From a virus (Duplodnaviria; Caudoviricetes), in the IMG/VR virus record IMGVR_UViG_3300028591_000081, positions 96,001 to 160,000 of that record: a stretch of 64,000 bases of DNA, one strand, 5' to 3'. The notes under the pieces were generated by a model, which searched no databases, was not told the origin of the DNA, and saw only the letters and a program-made list of their open reading frames with translations. Below, in pieces: positions 11,792 to 44,582 of this stretch. The position numbers and the translations under genes are program-made. Each line of letters starts with the position of its first letter. Within the stretch, counting starts at the first letter, position 1.

Positions 11792-12199
11792 ATGTTTATC
11801 AAGTCCGACATTTGTGGTGCCGAAGAAGCTCAGACCGTTTCTGTATTCAACAGTCTGTTCCTCATTGAACGCGCAGAGAATGCAATGTTCAATGTTACGA
11901 AGTGTAAAGAAGGTTCTGACCACAACTTCATTGTCTATTCCTATACAGACCTTGGGCTGATCCTTATGTTGATCACTGTGACAGCTTCGGAAACGAAAAT
12001 CCTTGCCCGGTCGATTGCCCATGATCCACACAACTTGGGGAATAACAAAGACCTTGAAGAGGATGTTGGTCACGAGTATTGTCGGGTACCTTATGCGTCT
12101 GACTTGCCTATGGTTCCGATTTACAATGCGCTCAAGAGTATGTACAGCAAAATGAGTAAGAATCTCTCTGAGTTTGTGTATGGAGATATTCCCTTTTAA
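11792..12199 (+). CDS. Hypothetical protein
   Basis: ORF with GGAG RBS. Confidence 0.65.
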   Translation: MFIKSDICGAEEAQTVSVFNSLFLIERAENAMFNVTKCKEGSDHNFIVYSYTDLGLILMLITVTASETKILARSIAHDPHNLGNNKDLEEDVGHEYCRVPYASDLPMVPIYNALKSMYSKMSKNLSEFVYGDIPF

Positions 12200-20014: not shown

Positions 20015-21853
20015 TTAGAATCCGATGATGTATCCGTAGCGGTCAATCTGGTTGGCCACACGTTCCGCACTAATCATGTAATCATTCATCATCATTTCCA
20101 GATTCTTTTGGTCAATGACGGTCTTGCCTGTACCATCCGGCACAGCCTGTCCTACATCAAACACGTAATCTTCTGCCCGCATTACGTCCACGGAGGCCGC
20201 GTCTTTCATGTGGTAAATGGCTATCTGCTTTACGATAAAGGAACGGTCAACTTCTGGGAACTTAGAGATGGCAAAAGGATTCAGGTTTACTCTGAGAAGA
20301 ACGTAGGTAGGGAACATGTCATCGGTAGCAAGACGCCAGAAACGACCTCCATACAGGAAAGTATCTGCCGCCTCTTTCTCGGCTTCACAGACAAGTTCTG
20401 CTGTACCATGGACAAACGTCAGGAAGTTGAAGGCATTATACCATCCCGAGAGTATCCATCGGTGTCTGCGACGCTGGAATGCCGCGTATTTTTCTTTGTC
20501 TGTAATCAGGGGTACCGTTACCTCATCGGAGTAAGTGTATCCTTCCGAGGTGACAGCGCGAGTGTTGTAGTACACACCGTCGTTGACAAACAGGGGTTTG
20601 TTGTAGTCTTCGTCAGTAGAGTTCAAGTCGTCGAGGTATGCCACCGGGAATATGGGATAGTTACGATCCCGCTCCATATCGGTCAAAGGCATTCCATAAG
20701 GTTTGTTGTCGGCAGTGTATCCGTTCAGATACCGTGCGGCATCTCTGTCTTCATACATGTCGCTGTATTCGGTAGAGATAGGCTTACTTCCTGTTCCTAC
20801 GGTCGAACCACTGCTCTCGTCTTCCGTTGTGGGACGATTTCTTCTGTCGTTGGAACGATCTCGTACATAATCGGTCAAAACTAGGAAAGGCTGAGCTTTC
20901 ATCTCATGGTATCGCGCAGTCCTTCTGGCCAGCAACTCGGCTTCTGACCAATCTGTCCATACCGGGTCATAAATAGGCAATCCGTTACTGTCTAAGACAA
21001 CATTTCCAAACTCATCCAGTCTTGCCTCCGTTTTCTGCGTACCATCCGGATTGAGTACAGGTTTCCTGCTGTCCGGCTTCTCACTCAGACGCTGGTTGGT
21101 GTTTTCAGCTACCGTAGCAAACTGAATAAGAGAATGGCGGAGTCCTGCAAGATCAAAACACAATCCCTTTTCTGTATCGTCATCTTCTGACTTACCAGCC
21201 GAACGCGTGGCATAGTATTCAGTACTGTCCCCTTCTGCTTTTCCGTTGGTGAGGAAATAATCGCGAAATACCATGGCATAGGCATTTGGATCGTACTGAT
21301 CATGGTAGGCTTTCAGAATTTGACGCGCCGAGATCCTTGTATCCGATGATACAAATAGAGGGTCTCGGTCATTGTCATAGGCAAAGTACAGTTCGGCCTT
21401 CCCTTCAGGATTCAACTGCATACAGAGAGGGTGTTCAGACAGGTACTTCACCATAGGTTCGGTACGCGTGGTTGTCAGGAGCATCATCACAGGCAGGGTG
21501 TACTCGAAGGTCGGAATGTCGTGCCAGTCACCGTCCTCTGTACCCCAAGTTACTACTGGAGATTCAATCATGCATCCACATCCACAAGGACACGGTCTGT
21601 ATTTCGGATTGGTACTCCCAGAAGGGGGGATAGGCTCGATACCCGGGGTGTCACTGCCGTCGGAAGAGTCAGAGTTCGGATTGTTCTGGTTACTGAGCTG
21701 GCGGCTATTGCACGGAGGTGCTTTGGGCATGTTCTCAGTAGTCCACTGATGTCCACCAGCTCCAAAAGCAAACCAAACCCCGCCGCCACTGTTGCAGAAT
21801 TTCTTGAACTCGCGTGCTTTGACATAACGTCCATAGTCTGTAAAGATACCCAT
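20015..21853 (-). CDS. Baseplate wedge protein (T4 gp8-like termini, large insertion)
   Basis: N-terminal GRYVKA...WFAFG; C-terminal VKQIAIY...ERVANQIDRYGYIIGF. Confidence 0.55.
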   Translation of the reverse strand: MGIFTDYGRYVKAREFKKFCNSGGGVWFAFGAGGHQWTTENMPKAPPCNSRQLSNQNNPNSDSSDGSDTPGIEPIPPSGSTNPKYRPCPCGCGCMIESPVVTWGTEDGDWHDIPTFEYTLPVMMLLTTTRTEPMVKYLSEHPLCMQLNPEGKAELYFAYDNDRDPLFVSSDTRISARQILKAYHDQYDPNAYAMVFRDYFLTNGKAEGDSTEYYATRSAGKSEDDDTEKGLCFDLAGLRHSLIQFATVAENTNQRLSEKPDSRKPVLNPDGTQKTEARLDEFGNVVLDSNGLPIYDPVWTDWSEAELLARRTARYHEMKAQPFLVLTDYVRDRSNDRRNRPTTEDESSGSTVGTGSKPISTEYSDMYEDRDAARYLNGYTADNKPYGMPLTDMERDRNYPIFPVAYLDDLNSTDEDYNKPLFVNDGVYYNTRAVTSEGYTYSDEVTVPLITDKEKYAAFQRRRHRWILSGWYNAFNFLTFVHGTAELVCEAEKEAADTFLYGGRFWRLATDDMFPTYVLLRVNLNPFAISKFPEVDRSFIVKQIAIYHMKDAASVDVMRAEDYVFDVGQAVPDGTGKTVIDQKNLEMMMNDYMISAERVANQIDRYGYIIGF

Positions 21854-27677: not shown

Positions 27678-27750
27678 CCTGAAGCCCTTGCATATATGCA
27701 GGATGATCCTGTGTTCGAACTGTTCTTTGAGTTCCTGTGTCATATAGAAT

Positions 27751-27932
27751 TTGCCCGGCAGAGCATGTCGGGATTATGAGGTGGAGACAGGTTTGGTCAA
27801 TAGACGCTAATAACGGTGAGATCTTTTCTGTCGATGAAACCTTACTCCGTGAAACAGGCTGGAGGATTCATAAGTCATCAAATTTTCGATTCTGGTGATG
27901 AAGAATTGGCCAGCCTTGTGGGAAGGCTTGGT
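27751..27932 (+). ncRNA. omegaRNA/tracrRNA-like guide scaffold, copy A (no adjacent nuclease)
   Basis: Closely similar to 32306-32498; stem differences preserve pairing; ends in anti-repeat tgtgggaagg. Confidence 0.8.
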
Positions 27933-28126
27933 GTCCTCCCCACATATACTGAGATGCTACTACGTGGAGTGGATGAGGTTTGCGATCTCAAGTCCTACCC
28001 ACATATACGGAGATGCTACTAGGTCGTGTGTATGAGGTCTGCGATCTCAATCTTCCCCCCATATACGGAGATGCTACCCCCCTGACTCAAACGTCGGAGT
28101 CCTCCCCCCATATACGGAGATGCTAC
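27933..28126 (+). CRISPR. Mini CRISPR array A: four 28-bp repeats, spacers of 31, 30 and 21 bp
   Basis: Repeats at 27933-27960, 27992-28019, 28050-28077 and 28099-28126; consensus GTCCTCCCC(A/C)CATATACGGAGATGCTAC, type I-E-like. Confidence 0.85.
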
Positions 28127-28129
28127 TTT

Positions 28130-29257
28130 ATGCCAAACGAATCAGAAACAAACTTCGCTGATCTGCTCACGTCAATGACGGTCAGTGTGCCAGTAAAACG
28201 TCTTCCTTCCAATCCGTCCAAGAAAGTGACTACACAGGAGCCAAAGTTCCAGTCCGTATTTTCAGACAGATTTCAAGAGAGGTGTTCGTTCATTCTCGAT
28301 CTGTCCTATCTGTTGTATTACGGACATTTCCGTGGCAACGAACAACCATGGGTGGATACCCAATGGGTAGCTGACGTTGTTTTGAAATTGCTCAGTTCCG
28401 GGCATGAGGTGTTTATCGCTGTGGACGGAAGACCTGTTCGTAAACAGATAAACGCTTCCTATAAAGCCAATCGAATCCATACATACAACATCAAGGAGAA
28501 CATGCCACCGCTTCTGTTCAATCTGAACATGTGTCGGCGCGTCCATATTCATTACAATCCGTGTCTTGAGGCTGACGACATCATCTTCTCTCTCAACAGT
28601 CGTATGAGTGGGCAGAAGGTGATTGTGTCGAGCGATAATGACATGCTTCAGTGTCTTGGTAGTGATACAGTCATTGATACAGGGAAAGTCATTATCGACG
28701 CTCTGTCCTACCTTGACTATTTCAAAGAGAAGTTCCAAGGGGTTCCGATTCAGAAGCTACCCATGTACCGTTCCATCACGGGTGACGCTTCTGACAATAT
28801 GAGGCCCCCAGTATCGCGGTTCCCACATGCCTTGGCCGCGAAATTCGTGAAAGAGCTGGAGTTCGATTACTGGGATACAAAGTTCCCTGAAAGAGGTCTT
28901 ATCGTTGAGACTGTCTCGAAACTTGAAACTGAAAATAAGGTCTCTAAAACTGAGATGGCGTGGCTGAATAAACTGCTGGATGAGACCCTCCCCAAACAAA
29001 AGGAACTTACTCCTGAGGAAGAGGCCATGATTCCGTCAGATCTTCTCCCCTCTTCAGAAACCTCTTCATCCTACGACAAGTGGAAGCTCAATTATGAACT
29101 AATGAGGCTTCACGCCTACACGATGGACGAAATTTCGTATGAGCCAGACATGCATTATGAGGAACTTCCCGTAGGGTTGGTGACTCAGTTTAACAAGATC
29201 CTACGCGCTGATGCACAGTATGAACCATTACCATTGGAATGGAGGACTGACGAATGA
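28130..29257 (+). CDS. 5'-3' exonuclease / flap endonuclease (PolA N-terminal or T4 RNase H-like)
   Basis: ILDLSY, IAVDG, YKANR, LEADDII, SSDNDMLQ, ITGDASDN. Confidence 0.92.
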   Translation: MPNESETNFADLLTSMTVSVPVKRLPSNPSKKVTTQEPKFQSVFSDRFQERCSFILDLSYLLYYGHFRGNEQPWVDTQWVADVVLKLLSSGHEVFIAVDGRPVRKQINASYKANRIHTYNIKENMPPLLFNLNMCRRVHIHYNPCLEADDIIFSLNSRMSGQKVIVSSDNDMLQCLGSDTVIDTGKVIIDALSYLDYFKEKFQGVPIQKLPMYRSITGDASDNMRPPVSRFPHALAAKFVKELEFDYWDTKFPERGLIVETVSKLETENKVSKTEMAWLNKLLDETLPKQKELTPEEEAMIPSDLLPSSETSSSYDKWKLNYELMRLHAYTMDEISYEPDMHYEELPVGLVTQFNKILRADAQYEPLPLEWRTDE

Positions 29258-32260: not shown

Positions 32261-32301
32261 TGGTGCTGATGTCCATTCTTTAGTTTCGTTCATGCTATAT
32301 A
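32261..32301 (+). promoter_or_regulatory. Phage promoter motif copy 9, positioned to drive the scaffold-array-nuclease unit
   Basis: TGGTGCTGA, 23 nt, TGcTATATA; predicted start ~32307 coincides with the 5' end of the scaffold. Confidence 0.8.
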
Positions 32302-32305
32302 GAAG

Positions 32306-32498
32306 TTGCCCGGCAGAGCATGTCGGGATTATGAGGTGGAGACGGATTTGATCAAGCGCATATTATGATTCATAGTATGATGCAAGATCATTTCTGTCGA
32401 TGAAACCTTACCCTGTGAAACAGGCTGGAGGATTCAAAAGTCATCAAATTTCTATTCTGGTGACGAAGAATTTGGCCAGCCTTGTGGGAATGCTTGGT
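32306..32498 (+). ncRNA. omegaRNA/tracrRNA-like guide scaffold, copy B
   Basis: Stems cccggca/tgtcggg, tgaggt/acctta, gacgga/tctgtc, tgatc/gatca, aggctgg/ccagcct, gtcatca/tggtgac; anti-repeat tgtgggaa. Confidence 0.82.
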
Positions 32499-32590
32499 AT
32501 CTTTCCCACATATACGGGGATGCTACCCAGAAAATGCGACCACTCTGGGCCGTCTATCCGTGGTCTACCCACATATTATGTGGATGCTAC
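32499..32590 (+). CRISPR. Mini CRISPR array B: repeat, 35-bp spacer, degenerate repeat
   Basis: atctttcccacatatacggggatgctac (32499-32526); ggtctacccacatattatgtggatgctac (32562-32590). Confidence 0.75.
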
Positions 32591-32607: not shown

Positions 32608-34275
32608 ATGTACGGTAAAAAGGAAAGTAAAGAGGGTATCGGTAAAGCTGGACTGGTAATCAGGCTGTACCCCAATCGAAAGCAGGAAGCCTTGCTGAAC
32701 CGTGTTTGTTTGGACAGACTTCATCAGTACAAAGCACTGGCCTTGTGGTGGAATGTTTCCAACCAAGTTCGTCGTGCAAAGTGTGCTGAGTTCTTTTCAA
32801 AGGAAGAGAACGAGGAAAAACGGAAAGCCTATAAGAGAACTTTACCAAATCCACCATTACCTTATCCTATCCCGTTTCCTACAAATGCTAAAAGTCGAAG
32901 CGACACACACCCAGTTAGTCCCATAGCCTTCAATAGCCCTCATCTTCATGTTATTCGTGACCTCATGCCGTCTTGGATGCATTTTGCATTTGTTCCTGAC
33001 AAAGACGGAGGGGAGTTGTTTGATGTGAAAAAGTACATTCAGCATGTATTCGGAGATTCTGTATCCTCCTGCGAGGTTCTGGGGTATTGTAAGGAAGACT
33101 TCGCTAGGTCTATCAATTCGACCTTTTCAGAGATCAATTATAACCGATGTGTGAAAAATAAGAAGCCGTGGCCTCCTGTCAAGATACATACTCCCAAACT
33201 CAAGGATGCCAACACTTTCAGTCTTCGGTTGACTGGCAGAACCAGCCAAAAGTTTCAGGTAAAAAGGTCTTCAAGCGGGCGCGTTCACAAGGTTTGGGTA
33301 CCTTTTCTGTCGGGTGATCTGAGAAAGAAGTTCAGCAAAGACCCGAAATACGGTAAAGACTTTGAATGGGTAGACTGTGCCCTTTCTGAGAAACAGTTGG
33401 AAAAGTGTTCAAATGCGACGAAGATGACAGTAAAAAAGAATGGAGCAGGGCAGTGGACAGCCTCCGTTCTTTTTGAAAAGCCTCTTGAAGAACATGTAGA
33501 AACCGGTCTGGAATGTGGGATTGATTTGGGTCTCAAGACCACCGCAGTCTTGTCAGAAAATATGGTCGGTGAGACCTCAACAGAGTACGATAAGTACCGT
33601 CAAGAACAACTCCCAGTTGACGAGATAATGAAACTTGAAAAGAAGATTGACTACCTCAGGAAAGTTCAGTCCAGACGTATCAAGACTTGGCTACGACTTC
33701 ACAAAGATGACGAAGCCAATGGCCTGAAGCTGAACACCGATAAAAACGATAAGGCCCACAACGCTGTCGCCGTGTATTGCAAGAAATACAAGTCCAATGC
33801 TTACAAAGCCACAGAACAGCGCATTGCCAAGCTGAGTAATGATATCGCAAACATCCGTACTGACTTTGCCGAGAAATTTTCACGAAAGGTGGCAGATCGT
33901 TACGACGTGGTTGGTCTGGAAGACCTGAACGTAAATGGGATGGTGAAGAACAAAAAGATGTCCAGAAACTTGGAGCGCATTGGGTTTTACAAACTTCGGG
34001 TGGCGATTGAGCGGAAGGTGAAGACTCAGTTGCTGGATACCTTTGCCCCTTCCTCGCAGACCTGTTCTCGATGTGGATTTAAGAATAAAGCTGTCAAGGA
34101 TTGTTCGGTTAGGGAGTGGACGTGCCCACAATGCGGCCATCACCACGACAGAGATGAGAACGCCGCGTCAAATATCAGACCCTCAAGTCAGGGTTTGTGT
34201 ATGCAGTATGTTCCGAAGAAAGCCGATAAGGAAGTCTCTAAGAAACGTACCCGCAAGACGAATAAATCCGTGTGA
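32608..34275 (+). CDS. tnpB: TnpB/Cas12f-like RNA-guided RuvC nuclease, 555 aa
   Basis: N-terminal IRLYPN..Q; RuvC-I GIDLG, RuvC-II GLEDLNV, SSQTCSRCG...WTCPQCG zinc ribbon, RuvC-III DRDENAA.NI. Confidence 0.93.
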   Translation: MYGKKESKEGIGKAGLVIRLYPNRKQEALLNRVCLDRLHQYKALALWWNVSNQVRRAKCAEFFSKEENEEKRKAYKRTLPNPPLPYPIPFPTNAKSRSDTHPVSPIAFNSPHLHVIRDLMPSWMHFAFVPDKDGGELFDVKKYIQHVFGDSVSSCEVLGYCKEDFARSINSTFSEINYNRCVKNKKPWPPVKIHTPKLKDANTFSLRLTGRTSQKFQVKRSSSGRVHKVWVPFLSGDLRKKFSKDPKYGKDFEWVDCALSEKQLEKCSNATKMTVKKNGAGQWTASVLFEKPLEEHVETGLECGIDLGLKTTAVLSENMVGETSTEYDKYRQEQLPVDEIMKLEKKIDYLRKVQSRRIKTWLRLHKDDEANGLKLNTDKNDKAHNAVAVYCKKYKSNAYKATEQRIAKLSNDIANIRTDFAEKFSRKVADRYDVVGLEDLNVNGMVKNKKMSRNLERIGFYKLRVAIERKVKTQLLDTFAPSSQTCSRCGFKNKAVKDCSVREWTCPQCGHHHDRDENAASNIRPSSQGLCMQYVPKKADKEVSKKRTRKTNKSV

Positions 34276-34283
34276 ACAGGATA

Positions 34284-34316
34284 CAAAAAAGGGACACACC
34301 CAATCGTGTGTCCCTC
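34284..34316 (-). terminator. Terminator for the minus-strand operon
   Basis: agggacacac/gtgtgtccct stem with an A6 run on its left side. Confidence 0.75.
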
Positions 34317-43839: not shown

Positions 43840-43924
43840 GGTCAGGTGCGTCGAATGGCTGAAGACAGCGGACTGTAAATCCGTGACATAAGAAACGTTG
43901 GAGGTTCGAGTCCTCCCCTGACCA
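43840..43924 (+). tRNA. tRNA-Tyr(GTA)
   Basis: Acceptor ggtcagg/cctgacc; anticodon arm gcgga-ctGTAaa-tccgt; T-arm ggagg-ttcgagt-cctcc; long variable arm. Confidence 0.9.
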
Positions 43925-43927
43925 TGA

Positions 43928-44068
43928 CAAGTCATCGCTACGAAGAGCGAGTTGTGAGAGTAAAGACTGAAACGATCTAGTAAGTGTACATAGCTAGAGA
44001 GTGGAGGGATTAGGGTAGCAAACGTAGAGCCTGAAAAAGCCCTAACGTATGGTAATGGGGATGACTTG
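43928..44068 (+). ncRNA. Unidentified structured RNA within the tRNA cluster
   Basis: Closing stem caagtcatc/gatgacttg; internal ctag/ctag and ttaggg/ccctaa stems. Confidence 0.5.
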
Positions 44069-44073
44069 TTATT

Positions 44074-44136
44074 GGCGGTGTAGCTCAGTAGTTTAGAGCG
44101 CATTCGAGGTCGTTGGTGCAAATCCAATCACCGCCT
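44074..44136 (+). ncRNA. tRNA-like RNA lacking the anticodon arm
   Basis: Acceptor ggcggtg/caccgcc, D-arm gctc/gagc, T-arm gttgg-tgcaaat-ccaat; only gcattcgaggtc lies between D and T arms. Confidence 0.75.
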
Positions 44137-44141
44137 TTTTT

Positions 44142-44230
44142 GCCATGTCCGTCTGTTAGGTGTTGCAGACGCTCACAGGAATGGGTAGCTCCTCTGTTGA
44201 GAGAATCAGGTTCGAGTCCTGAACATGGCA
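44142..44230 (+). ncRNA. tRNA-like RNA with non-canonical anticodon region
   Basis: Acceptor gccatgt/acatggc, D-arm gtctg/cagac, T-arm tcagg-ttcgagt-cctga; no standard 5-bp stem with 7-nt loop. Confidence 0.65.
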
Positions 44231-44383
44231 TTTCTCTGGTACGGCAGAGAGACGTTGCGTGGAAGGCGAGCATCGAGAATTCTCGCTTCGGGCAGTCTGG
44301 CCATTCGTGGAACTTGGATCCACTACGATTGGTCGCAGGTCTGTATCAAAGCGTGAGGTGCCGTAATACTTCATGCTTTTTTT

Positions 44384-44472
44384 GCGGGTGTGCAGAAATC
44401 GGCAAACTGCGCGGTCTCAAAAACCGTCGGTGGGTAAAGCCCCACTTGTGAGTTCGAGTCTCACCACCCGCA
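44384..44472 (+). tRNA. tRNA-Leu(CAA)
   Basis: Acceptor gcgggtg/cacccgc; anticodon arm gcggt-ctCAAaa-accgt; long variable arm. Confidence 0.9.
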
Positions 44473-44475
44473 TTT

Positions 44476-44559
44476 GCCAGCGTGACGGAATTGGTAGACG
44501 TGGCCGCCTCAGAAGCGGTTGTCCTTGTGACGTTGATGGTTCGAGTCCATCCGCTGGCA
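44476..44559 (+). tRNA. tRNA-Leu(CAG)
   Basis: Acceptor gccagcg/cgctggc; anticodon arm gccgc-ctCAGaa-gcggt; T-arm gatgg-ttcgagt-ccatc. Confidence 0.92.
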
Positions 44560-44582
44560 TTTCTTAACTGACCTTATTCTGC

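What the first reader, a model, noticed from the sequence alone, without database searches (positions are those of the whole stretch)
32306..32526. Scaffold has an in-cis anti-repeat and a loop-to-repeat pseudoknot: natural single-guide architecture
Seen: (1) tgtgggaa (32483-32490) is complementary to ttcccaca in the first repeat about 12 nt downstream; in copy A tgtgggaagg pairs 9 of 10 with cctccccaca. (2) The 5' hairpin cccggca-GAGCA-tgtcggg exposes AGCA, complementary to the TGCT of GATGCTAC, which is invariant at the end of all six repeats. (3) Several differences between the copies preserve pairing (gacagg or gacgga with tctgtc; ggtc/gatc versus tgatc/gatca; gtcatca with tggtgat or tggtgac). 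Established: TnpB omegaRNAs and Cas12f guides form a pseudoknot with the nucleotides just 5' of the guide. Inference: scaffold plus first repeat act as a fused tracr-crRNA, and a processed scaffold could serve downstream repeats in trans.
Basis: partly seen in the sequence, partly recalled or inferred. Interest (0 to 1): 0.8.

Follow-up and report, generated by a model that had tools for sequence, protein, structure and literature searches.

The report
Phage nuclease guide fused to CRISPR
A sheep-gut phage carries a small RNA-guided DNA cutter whose folded helper RNA runs straight into the first repeat of a miniature CRISPR array, so one transcript probably forms a ready-made single guide whose targeting sequence may be refreshed by the host's CRISPR machinery.

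Summary
Observation confirmed and extended. 32306-32526 is a ~190-nt scaffold plus the first 28-nt repeat of a mini-array, behind a phage promoter and ahead of a catalytically intact 555-aa TnpB-family nuclease in a 228-kb phage; a nuclease-less copy lies at 27749-28126. Across 20 scaffolds of this nuclease family the 5' loop/repeat-end pseudoknot covaries (35 of 36 core pairs in 12 distinct combinations, shuffle p~1e-5; kinship not corrected). The core matches a canonical IS605 omegaRNA of the same genome. Repeats are type I-E-like with 33-nt spacers; no cas1. A sister clade keeps scaffold and array apart. RNA contigs of two studies span the junction and stop 14 nt into the spacer (weak hint). 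Cleavage, targets, PAM and trans use are untested. It works like a TranC/Cas12n intermediate with the guide unsplit; precedents exist, and this scan reported similar fused scaffold-array phage systems on other DNA. New variant of a known kind.

The parts
32261..32301 (+). Phage promoter (TGGTGCTGA box, ~21 nt, extended -10); predicted start near 32307, at the scaffold's 5' end
   Evidence: 34 copies of the box in the genome against ~1.6 expected, with a shared downstream TG.TA pattern; function inferred
32309..32327 (+). P1 hairpin; loop 32316-32320 forms the pseudoknot with repeat 32521-32524
   Evidence: 4 of 5 pseudoknot columns with two-sided change
32333..32409 (+). P2 helix (32333-32337 with 32405-32409) enclosing variable hairpin P3 (32341-32398); UGGAG...GAA core shared with IS605 omegaRNA
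   Evidence: (100% of cells paired)
32411..32417 (+).
   Evidence: 6 of 7 pairs compensatory, 92% of cells paired
32422..32482 (+). P4 hairpin inserted between the two anti-repeat halves (32422-32428 with 32476-32482)
   Evidence: 5 of 6 pairs compensatory
32483..32490 (+). Proximal anti-repeat (AR-b): 8 bp with 32503-32510 here; family register 32484-32488 with 32507-32511
32499..32526 (+). Repeat B1, 28 nt, type I-E-like with decayed internal palindrome; 3' part of the fused guide
   Evidence: 19/28 identical to an array repeat of a Cse1-bearing genome
32527..32562 (+). Spacer B1, predicted guide; RNA contigs of two studies stop at 32540; target not found
32563..32590 (+). Degenerate terminal repeat B2 (self-hairpin, keeps only the pseudoknot end)
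32608..34275 (+). 555-aa TnpB-family nuclease, RuvC D306/E438/D516 and zinc finger invariant in 25 homologues
27749..27932 (+). Second scaffold copy (A), 84% identical, no nuclease beside it; AR-a 27845-27851, AR-b 27917-27924
27933..28126 (+). Array A: four repeats, spacers of 31, 30 and 21 nt; absent in one related phage, different second spacer in another

Best explanation
This is the guide-RNA gene of a phage-encoded, TnpB-derived miniature type V nuclease (P0001). A phage promoter starts transcription at the P1 hairpin. The transcript folds into an omegaRNA-type core (P1, P2) and grips the first CRISPR repeat in cis at three places: AR-b with repeat nt ~9-13 (5-12 here), AR-a with nt 15-21, closing a three-way junction around P4, and the P1 loop with nt 23-26 as the pseudoknot that sets the start of the guide. 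The nuclease binds this unsplit RNA, the 3' end is trimmed to a guide of about 14-17 nt, and double-stranded DNA beside a 5' PAM is cut, probably that of competing phages or mobile elements. Copy A supplies more guides to the same protein. New spacers are probably inserted by the host's type I-E Cas1-Cas2 at the first repeat, which puts the newest spacer in the fused guide slot. Shown here: the sequence anatomy, covariation of six helices, intact catalytic residues, family-wide linkage of scaffold, array and nuclease, strain-variable spacers. Inferred: transcription start, RNP formation, trimming, cleavage, host-driven acquisition, and any use of downstream repeats in trans.
For: Six helices on 14 scaffolds: 92.3% of cells paired, 22 of 32 pairs with two-sided change, 0/500 shuffles as high, slid controls 33-45%; AR-a found independently by RNAalifold. 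Pseudoknot in 12 distinct loop/end combinations, including the distant split clade: 35/36 core pairs, shuffled mean 26. Same P1-pseudoknot-P2 core and register in a canonical IS605 omegaRNA of this genome; the pseudoknot is common to TnpB and Cas12 guides (PMC10097598). Every family locus examined has a scaffold beside the nuclease, and all but L144 an array; the covariance model finds it in split-clade loci it was not built from and in none of 41 generic TnpB loci. RuvC triad invariant. 51 of 78 inter-repeat gaps are 33 nt with 28-nt repeats, like the array of a Cse1-bearing genome; no Cas1 or Y1 transposase in the 96%-complete genome. Spacers differ between strains with the same nuclease (L015/L016/L141; run X2). 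Metatranscriptome contigs 32322-32540 and 32346-32540 (two studies) and 27762-28022 bridge anti-repeat and repeat.
Against: No activity data, protospacer or PAM for this locus. RNA evidence is low-depth contigs without strand, possibly DNA carry-over; the copy A contig runs past +14, so the 32540 end may be an assembly break. Window spacers are irregular (36, 31, 30, 21 nt; two are near-twins) and the leader-junction motif is degenerate (TTGGT against TTAGT/A), so this locus may no longer acquire spacers. Spacer B1 folds on itself at its 5' end. Shuffle controls ignore kinship. A co-transcribed precursor could still be cut in the 12-16-nt loop and work as a dual RNA.
Confidence: 0.72

Rival explanations
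1. Ordinary dual-RNA system (TranC/Cas12n/Cas12f-like): the tracrRNA gene merely abuts the array; the precursor is always cut in the loop between AR-b and the repeat, and free tracrRNA loads all spacers alike.
For: Downstream repeats deviate at 21/577 paired against 58/459 unpaired positions (p=6e-8), half the paired changes keep pairing; predicted trans binding -6 to -11 kcal/mol for cognate copy A repeats; arrays of up to 9 repeats in fused loci; the sister clade is split, with 9-11-bp anti-repeats 30-130 nt before the array.
Against: RNA contigs bridge the loop (weak); AR-b is only ~5 bp in the fused clade and partly deleted in L003; fixed 25-nt spacing from P4 to repeat in most fused loci; downstream conservation can reflect duplication of earlier first repeats. 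Not exclusive of the best explanation for spacer 1.
Confidence: 0.2
2. Decaying or selfish cassette: the fold is inherited from an active family, but here the element no longer defends and persists by inertia or by homing into empty phage sites.
For: Cassette A is absent in a relative (joint 27682-28130); positions differ among phages; irregular spacers; P0001 sits on a long branch.
Against: Intact ORF and catalytic triad, compensatory changes specific to this lineage (A-G-C-A loop with matching repeat end; G-C-rich P4), intact promoter, no TnpA; no guide matches the flank or the own genome.
Confidence: 0.07
3. The pairings are chance and the array is an orphan type I-E mini-array used by host Cascade.
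For: Repeats are I-E-like; the pseudoknot is only 4 bp.
Against: Covariation across the family; the internal palindrome that Cas6e needs is largely lost (established knowledge); strict linkage to the nuclease family.
Confidence: 0.01

Closest known systems
TranC transposon-CRISPR intermediates (Jin et al., Cell 2025; paper not held, known through 10.64898/2026.03.27.714800, PMC13639567, PMC13565253; LaTranC PDB 9jfo/9jfq)
   Same: TnpB-sized intact RuvC nuclease with a CRISPR array, no cas1/cas2, omegaRNA-like scaffold; profile hit to LaTranC E 1.9e-33; phage-borne members exist.
   Different: TranC is described as omegaRNA split into tracrRNA and crRNA; here scaffold and repeat 1 are contiguous. 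Repeats 28 nt, I-E-like, against 32-38 nt for clades 3, 9, 11, 20. Clade identity could not be tested.
IS200/IS605 TnpB with omegaRNA (ISDra2, PDB 8h1j; PMC10097598)
   Same: Best fold and sequence matches; single RNA, 5' stem loop pseudoknot to nt -3 to -6, tracr-like and cr-like parts joined by a natural loop.
   Different: About 150 aa longer, no TnpA, guide comes from a spacer behind a CRISPR repeat, bipartite anti-repeat, RNA gene upstream of the ORF on its own promoter.
Cas12r of Thermus Lalka phages (10.64898/2026.04.20.719267)
   Same: Phage-borne ~560-aa TnpB-derived effector, degenerate I-E-like repeats, proposed spacer capture by host I-E adaptation.
   Different: Cas12r uses crRNA alone (44 nt, no tracrRNA); this family needs a ~190-nt scaffold by all signs.
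Cas12f, Cas12n, Cas12p guides (R:AR1 pseudoknot plus R:AR2 duplex; 10.1101/2025.01.20.633832)
   Same: 4-5-bp pseudoknot just 5' of the guide plus a repeat:anti-repeat duplex; in the split sister clade the scaffold overlaps the ORF's 3' tail as in Cas12n.
   Different: Natural guides are dual RNAs joined artificially; protein identity is limited to the RuvC/zinc-finger region.
Natural fusions in other lineages: sigma-linked dead Cas12f (PMC10691335) and CRISPR-associated IscB, DelIscB (PMC12660989)
   Same: tracrRNA and repeat on one RNA; DelIscB ncRNA holds array and anti-repeat upstream of its ORF.
   Different: The dead-Cas12f fusion keeps half a repeat, no array and no nuclease activity; IscB is the Cas9 lineage with a 5' guide.

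Membership tests
TnpB/Cas12 RuvC nuclease superfamily | RuvC D-E-D triad, zinc finger, TnpB fold | tested here: met
   D306, E438, D516 and four Cys invariant; NF040570 145 bits over cut-off 100; Foldseek best hit 8h1j, E 8e-17
TnpB/Cas12 guide RNAs | Pseudoknot between a 5' stem loop and the nucleotides just before the guide | tested here: met
   (covariation; not probed experimentally)
IS200/IS605 insertion sequence | TnpA or transposon ends with omegaRNA over the right end | tested here: not met
   no Y1_Tnp in the genome; RNA upstream and ending in a CRISPR repeat; IS200_TnpB 156 bits against cut-off 425
TranC | TnpB-like effector linked to a CRISPR array without adaptation genes | tested here: met
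TranC | Guide split into separate tracrRNA and crRNA | tested here: inconclusive
   gene-level fusion in this clade, separation in the sister clade; mature RNA ends unknown; contigs bridge the junction
TranC | Placement in a named TranC clade | not testable with these tools
   paper and supplements not held
TranC / type V CRISPR | Spacer-guided, PAM-dependent DNA cleavage | not testable with these tools
   needs an assay; no protospacer found
Cas12r | crRNA only, no tracrRNA | tested here: not met
   conserved covarying scaffold pairs with the repeat
Cas12n | tracrRNA inside the ORF's 3' tail | tested here: not met
   scaffold is upstream of the ORF here; overlap only in split-clade L014, L018, L143
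Type I-E CRISPR array | 28-nt repeat, 61-nt period, I-E-like sequence | tested here: inconclusive
   family period 61 and 15-23 of 28 identity to a host array repeat; window spacers irregular, palindrome decayed; the Cse1 gene lies on another contig than that host array

The most novel reading that the evidence does not exclude
A self-updating natural single guide: in this clade the tracr scaffold has taken the place of the CRISPR leader (boxA-like motif before it, TTAGT/A junction after it), so each spacer that the host's type I-E Cas1-Cas2 inserts lands directly in the guide slot of an active nuclease's unsplit RNA, while older spacers are pushed back and are used only through scaffold released in trans, or not at all. 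The split sister clade would let the fusion or splitting step be studied within one family.
Probability: 0.4. Interest if true: 0.8.

Novelty: new variant of a known kind. Interest (0 to 1): 0.6.

Why it matters
How a one-piece transposon omegaRNA became a tracrRNA plus an array is an open step in the origin of Cas12. This family holds fused and split arrangements as sister clades with the same pseudoknot core, and shows a borrowed class 1 repeat being gripped by a co-evolving three-part anti-repeat. That makes the step testable by swapping parts. It also offers a ~510-555-aa nuclease family, absent from curated phage records and with no Rfam match for its RNA, whose guide needs no artificial linker. 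The pseudoknot itself is expected for any TnpB/Cas12 guide and is not the news.

Tried and rejected
Rfam: no family. IMG/VR searches with the protein and the P1 hairpin: nothing close; GTDB genomes: no family member; INPHARED: only generic TnpBs. Protospacer searches: own genome, all fetched loci, exact IMG/VR scans for spacer B1 (none) and the shared core of A1/A2 (88 hits, none extending beyond chance). An alternative short helix closing the anti-repeat into a loop (positions -24..-21 with -4..-1) was considered and dropped: the same bases form P4, which covaries strongly, and the -5..-1 motif is better read as a leader junction. The boxA-like motif (14 of 21 scaffolds against 3.4% background) does not apply to the window copies, where the similar text lies inside the promoter. 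The generic sigma-70 scan found nothing at the scaffold start. Lack of RNA-contig cover over the nuclease gene is not used as evidence. Direction of change (fusion or splitting) is not resolved: the two clades are sisters, and no clade test was run. Supplements for TranC, V-U and Cas12p membership were not held or had no match. The host is unknown; the Planctomycetia array only illustrates the repeat type.

Full report
Setting. The window lies in a 227.6-kb virus record, 96% complete, whose best-matching run is a sheep-gut metagenome. The finding covers a non-coding stretch between a thymidylate kinase gene and a 555-aa ORF (32608-34275) with OrfB_IS605 and Cas12f1-like_TNB domains. A second copy, 84% identical, lies at 27749-27960 with four repeats and no nuclease; there are no further copies. 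No Cas1 or Y1 transposase was found in the genome. A promoter-like box present 34 times in the genome (about 1.6 expected) sits at 32261 with an extended -10 ending at 32301, which puts the predicted start at the P1 hairpin (lead from note e1-5657071).

Checking the observation. All three stated features are in the sequence. Copy B folds far better than shuffles (z -6.4; copy A z -3.4). Each short pairing alone has about 0.6% chance, so two copies at 84% identity cannot prove them. The listed A/B differences are one-sided.

Homologues. The protein belongs to a distinct family of about 30 known sequences (33-53% identity, invariant RuvC triad), several on 210-244-kb contigs with phage genes. 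Every locus fetched carries a related scaffold, and all but L144 a CRISPR array of 28-nt repeats, upstream, downstream or on both sides of the gene. 51 of 78 inter-repeat gaps are 33 nt. A covariance model built from 14 fused scaffolds also finds four split-clade loci (E 4e-6 to 2e-5) and nothing in 41 generic TnpB loci.

Pseudoknot. The P1 loop and the repeat end change together: AGCA/UGCU here, UGACA/UGUCA, AAAC/GUUU, AAAUA/UAUUU, AGAC/GUCU, GAUC/GGUC, GCAA/UUGC elsewhere. Over 12 distinct combinations 10 give four or more contiguous pairs (shuffled mean 3.8) and 35 of 36 core pairs form (mean 26; p about 1e-5, kinship not corrected). Exceptions are L010's single visible repeat and the GCCAC-ending repeats of L015/L016. 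A canonical IS605 omegaRNA elsewhere in this genome has the same 4-bp stem, 5-nt loop, pseudoknot register and UGGAG...GAA helix, which ties the scaffold to an omegaRNA ancestor. The pseudoknot is conserved in TnpB and all Cas12 guides (PMC10097598; Cas12p).

Anti-repeat. Its 8-bp register is not supported across the family; a 5-bp helix two bases over is (91% paired), and the periodic repeat here allows both. The full model has six helices with 92.3% of cells paired and 22 of 32 pairs compensatory, against 33-45% for slid controls. The repeat is thus held over 16-19 of its 28 nt, with P4 inserted between the two anti-repeat halves.

Fused and split clades. A maximum-likelihood tree of 48 proteins gives two well-supported sister clades. 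In one (11 labelled loci, including this one) the anti-repeat lies 8-16 nt before repeat 1. In the other (4 loci) it is 9-11 bp long, lies 30-130 nt before the array, and in three loci the scaffold overlaps the ORF's 3' tail. Both clades end the pre-array stretch in a TTAG(T/A/C) motif, which I read from memory as like type I-E leader junctions. A boxA-like motif precedes 14 of 21 scaffolds (background 3.4%) and occurs in a host array leader; boxA in CRISPR leaders is described in 10.64898/2026.07.09.737519. The direction of change is unresolved.

Spacer source and targets. Repeats match the array repeat of a Cse1-bearing Planctomycetia genome at up to 23 of 28 positions, 16-19 for the window. 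Strains with the same nuclease carry different spacers, and two pairs come from opposite strands of one target; one pair gives 5' flanks GAA-G and GAA-T, too little to call a PAM. Host I-E adaptation is therefore an inference, as proposed for Cas12r. No target was found for window spacers.

RNA. Contigs from two sheep-gut metatranscriptomes cover 32322-32540 and 32346-32540, and one covers 27762-28022; they are among the deepest pieces in those runs and bridge the anti-repeat/repeat loop. The shared end 14 nt into spacer B1 fits a trimmed TnpB-type guide (16 nt in ISDra2), but depth is 3-6, strand is unknown and assembly breaks can mimic it: a weak hint only. The same call shows cassette A missing in one relative and a different second spacer in another.

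Use in trans. Downstream repeats keep all three patches and vary less at paired positions (3.6% against 12.6%), but each is a copy of an earlier first repeat, so this does not prove current use. In copy B the second repeat is degenerate, so B is in effect a single guide with one spacer; the question matters for copy A.

Comparison and verdict. The system works like a TranC/Cas12n-type intermediate; membership in a named clade could not be tested. It differs from TranC as described by being unsplit at gene level, from Cas12r by having a scaffold, and from TnpB by drawing its guide from an array. Natural fusions are known for dead Cas12f and CRISPR-associated IscB; I found no paper on an active type V nuclease with this arrangement, but the main TranC paper was not readable. 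Unchecked notes of this scan describe similar fused scaffold-array phage systems in other genomes; none shares detectable sequence with this one. Verdict: real feature, new variant of a known kind, interest 0.6.

Noticed in passing
window 27961-27991 and 28020-28050: Spacers A1 and A2 are near-twins; their reverse complements read as two similar peptides in one frame. Run X2 shows an indel variant of A1 that would be 33 nt. Duplication with drift or repeated capture from a varying target are both open; no source gene was found.
   Followed up: partly
window 27682-28130: A related phage lacks cassette A (111 other bases in its place), so it is an accessory insert in front of the 5'-3' exonuclease gene; that run also holds a related scaffold on another contig.
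   Followed up: partly
window 28078-28098; L018:4985-5078: Spacer A3 shares an 11-nt run with two near-identical spacers of the distant locus L018; may be chance.
   Followed up: no
L003:11790-11817: AR-b and the 5' half of repeat 1 are deleted, leaving AR-a and the pseudoknot: a naturally shortened single guide.
   Followed up: partly
L145:2183-2421 and L012:1791-2029: The downstream scaffold appears to lack the P1 hairpin, and its repeats end differently from the upstream array, as if the pseudoknot constraint were lost (seen by eye).
   Followed up: no
L001:9870-9903 and 11858-11942: One 'spacer' is a piece of the scaffold itself, and the downstream array holds a duplicated 3' half of the scaffold before repeat 2.
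   Followed up: no
L144:2048-2272: A close relative has scaffold plus one degenerate repeat that runs into a thymidylate kinase start codon; in the window the kinase gene lies on the other side of the cassette.
   Followed up: partly
L141:10048-10080 with L015:5067-5099; L141:9987-10019 with L016:5226-5258: Spacers taken from opposite strands of the same target in different strains.
   Followed up: partly
genome C1 ~20880-21432 (-) and ~186555-187320 (+): Two further, canonical solo TnpBs with their own right-end omegaRNAs.
   Followed up: partly
window 34289-34316: Strong hairpin just after the nuclease stop; its T-run faces the convergent minus-strand gene.
   Followed up: no
window 43840-44560: Three phage tRNA genes (Tyr, two Leu).
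   Followed up: no
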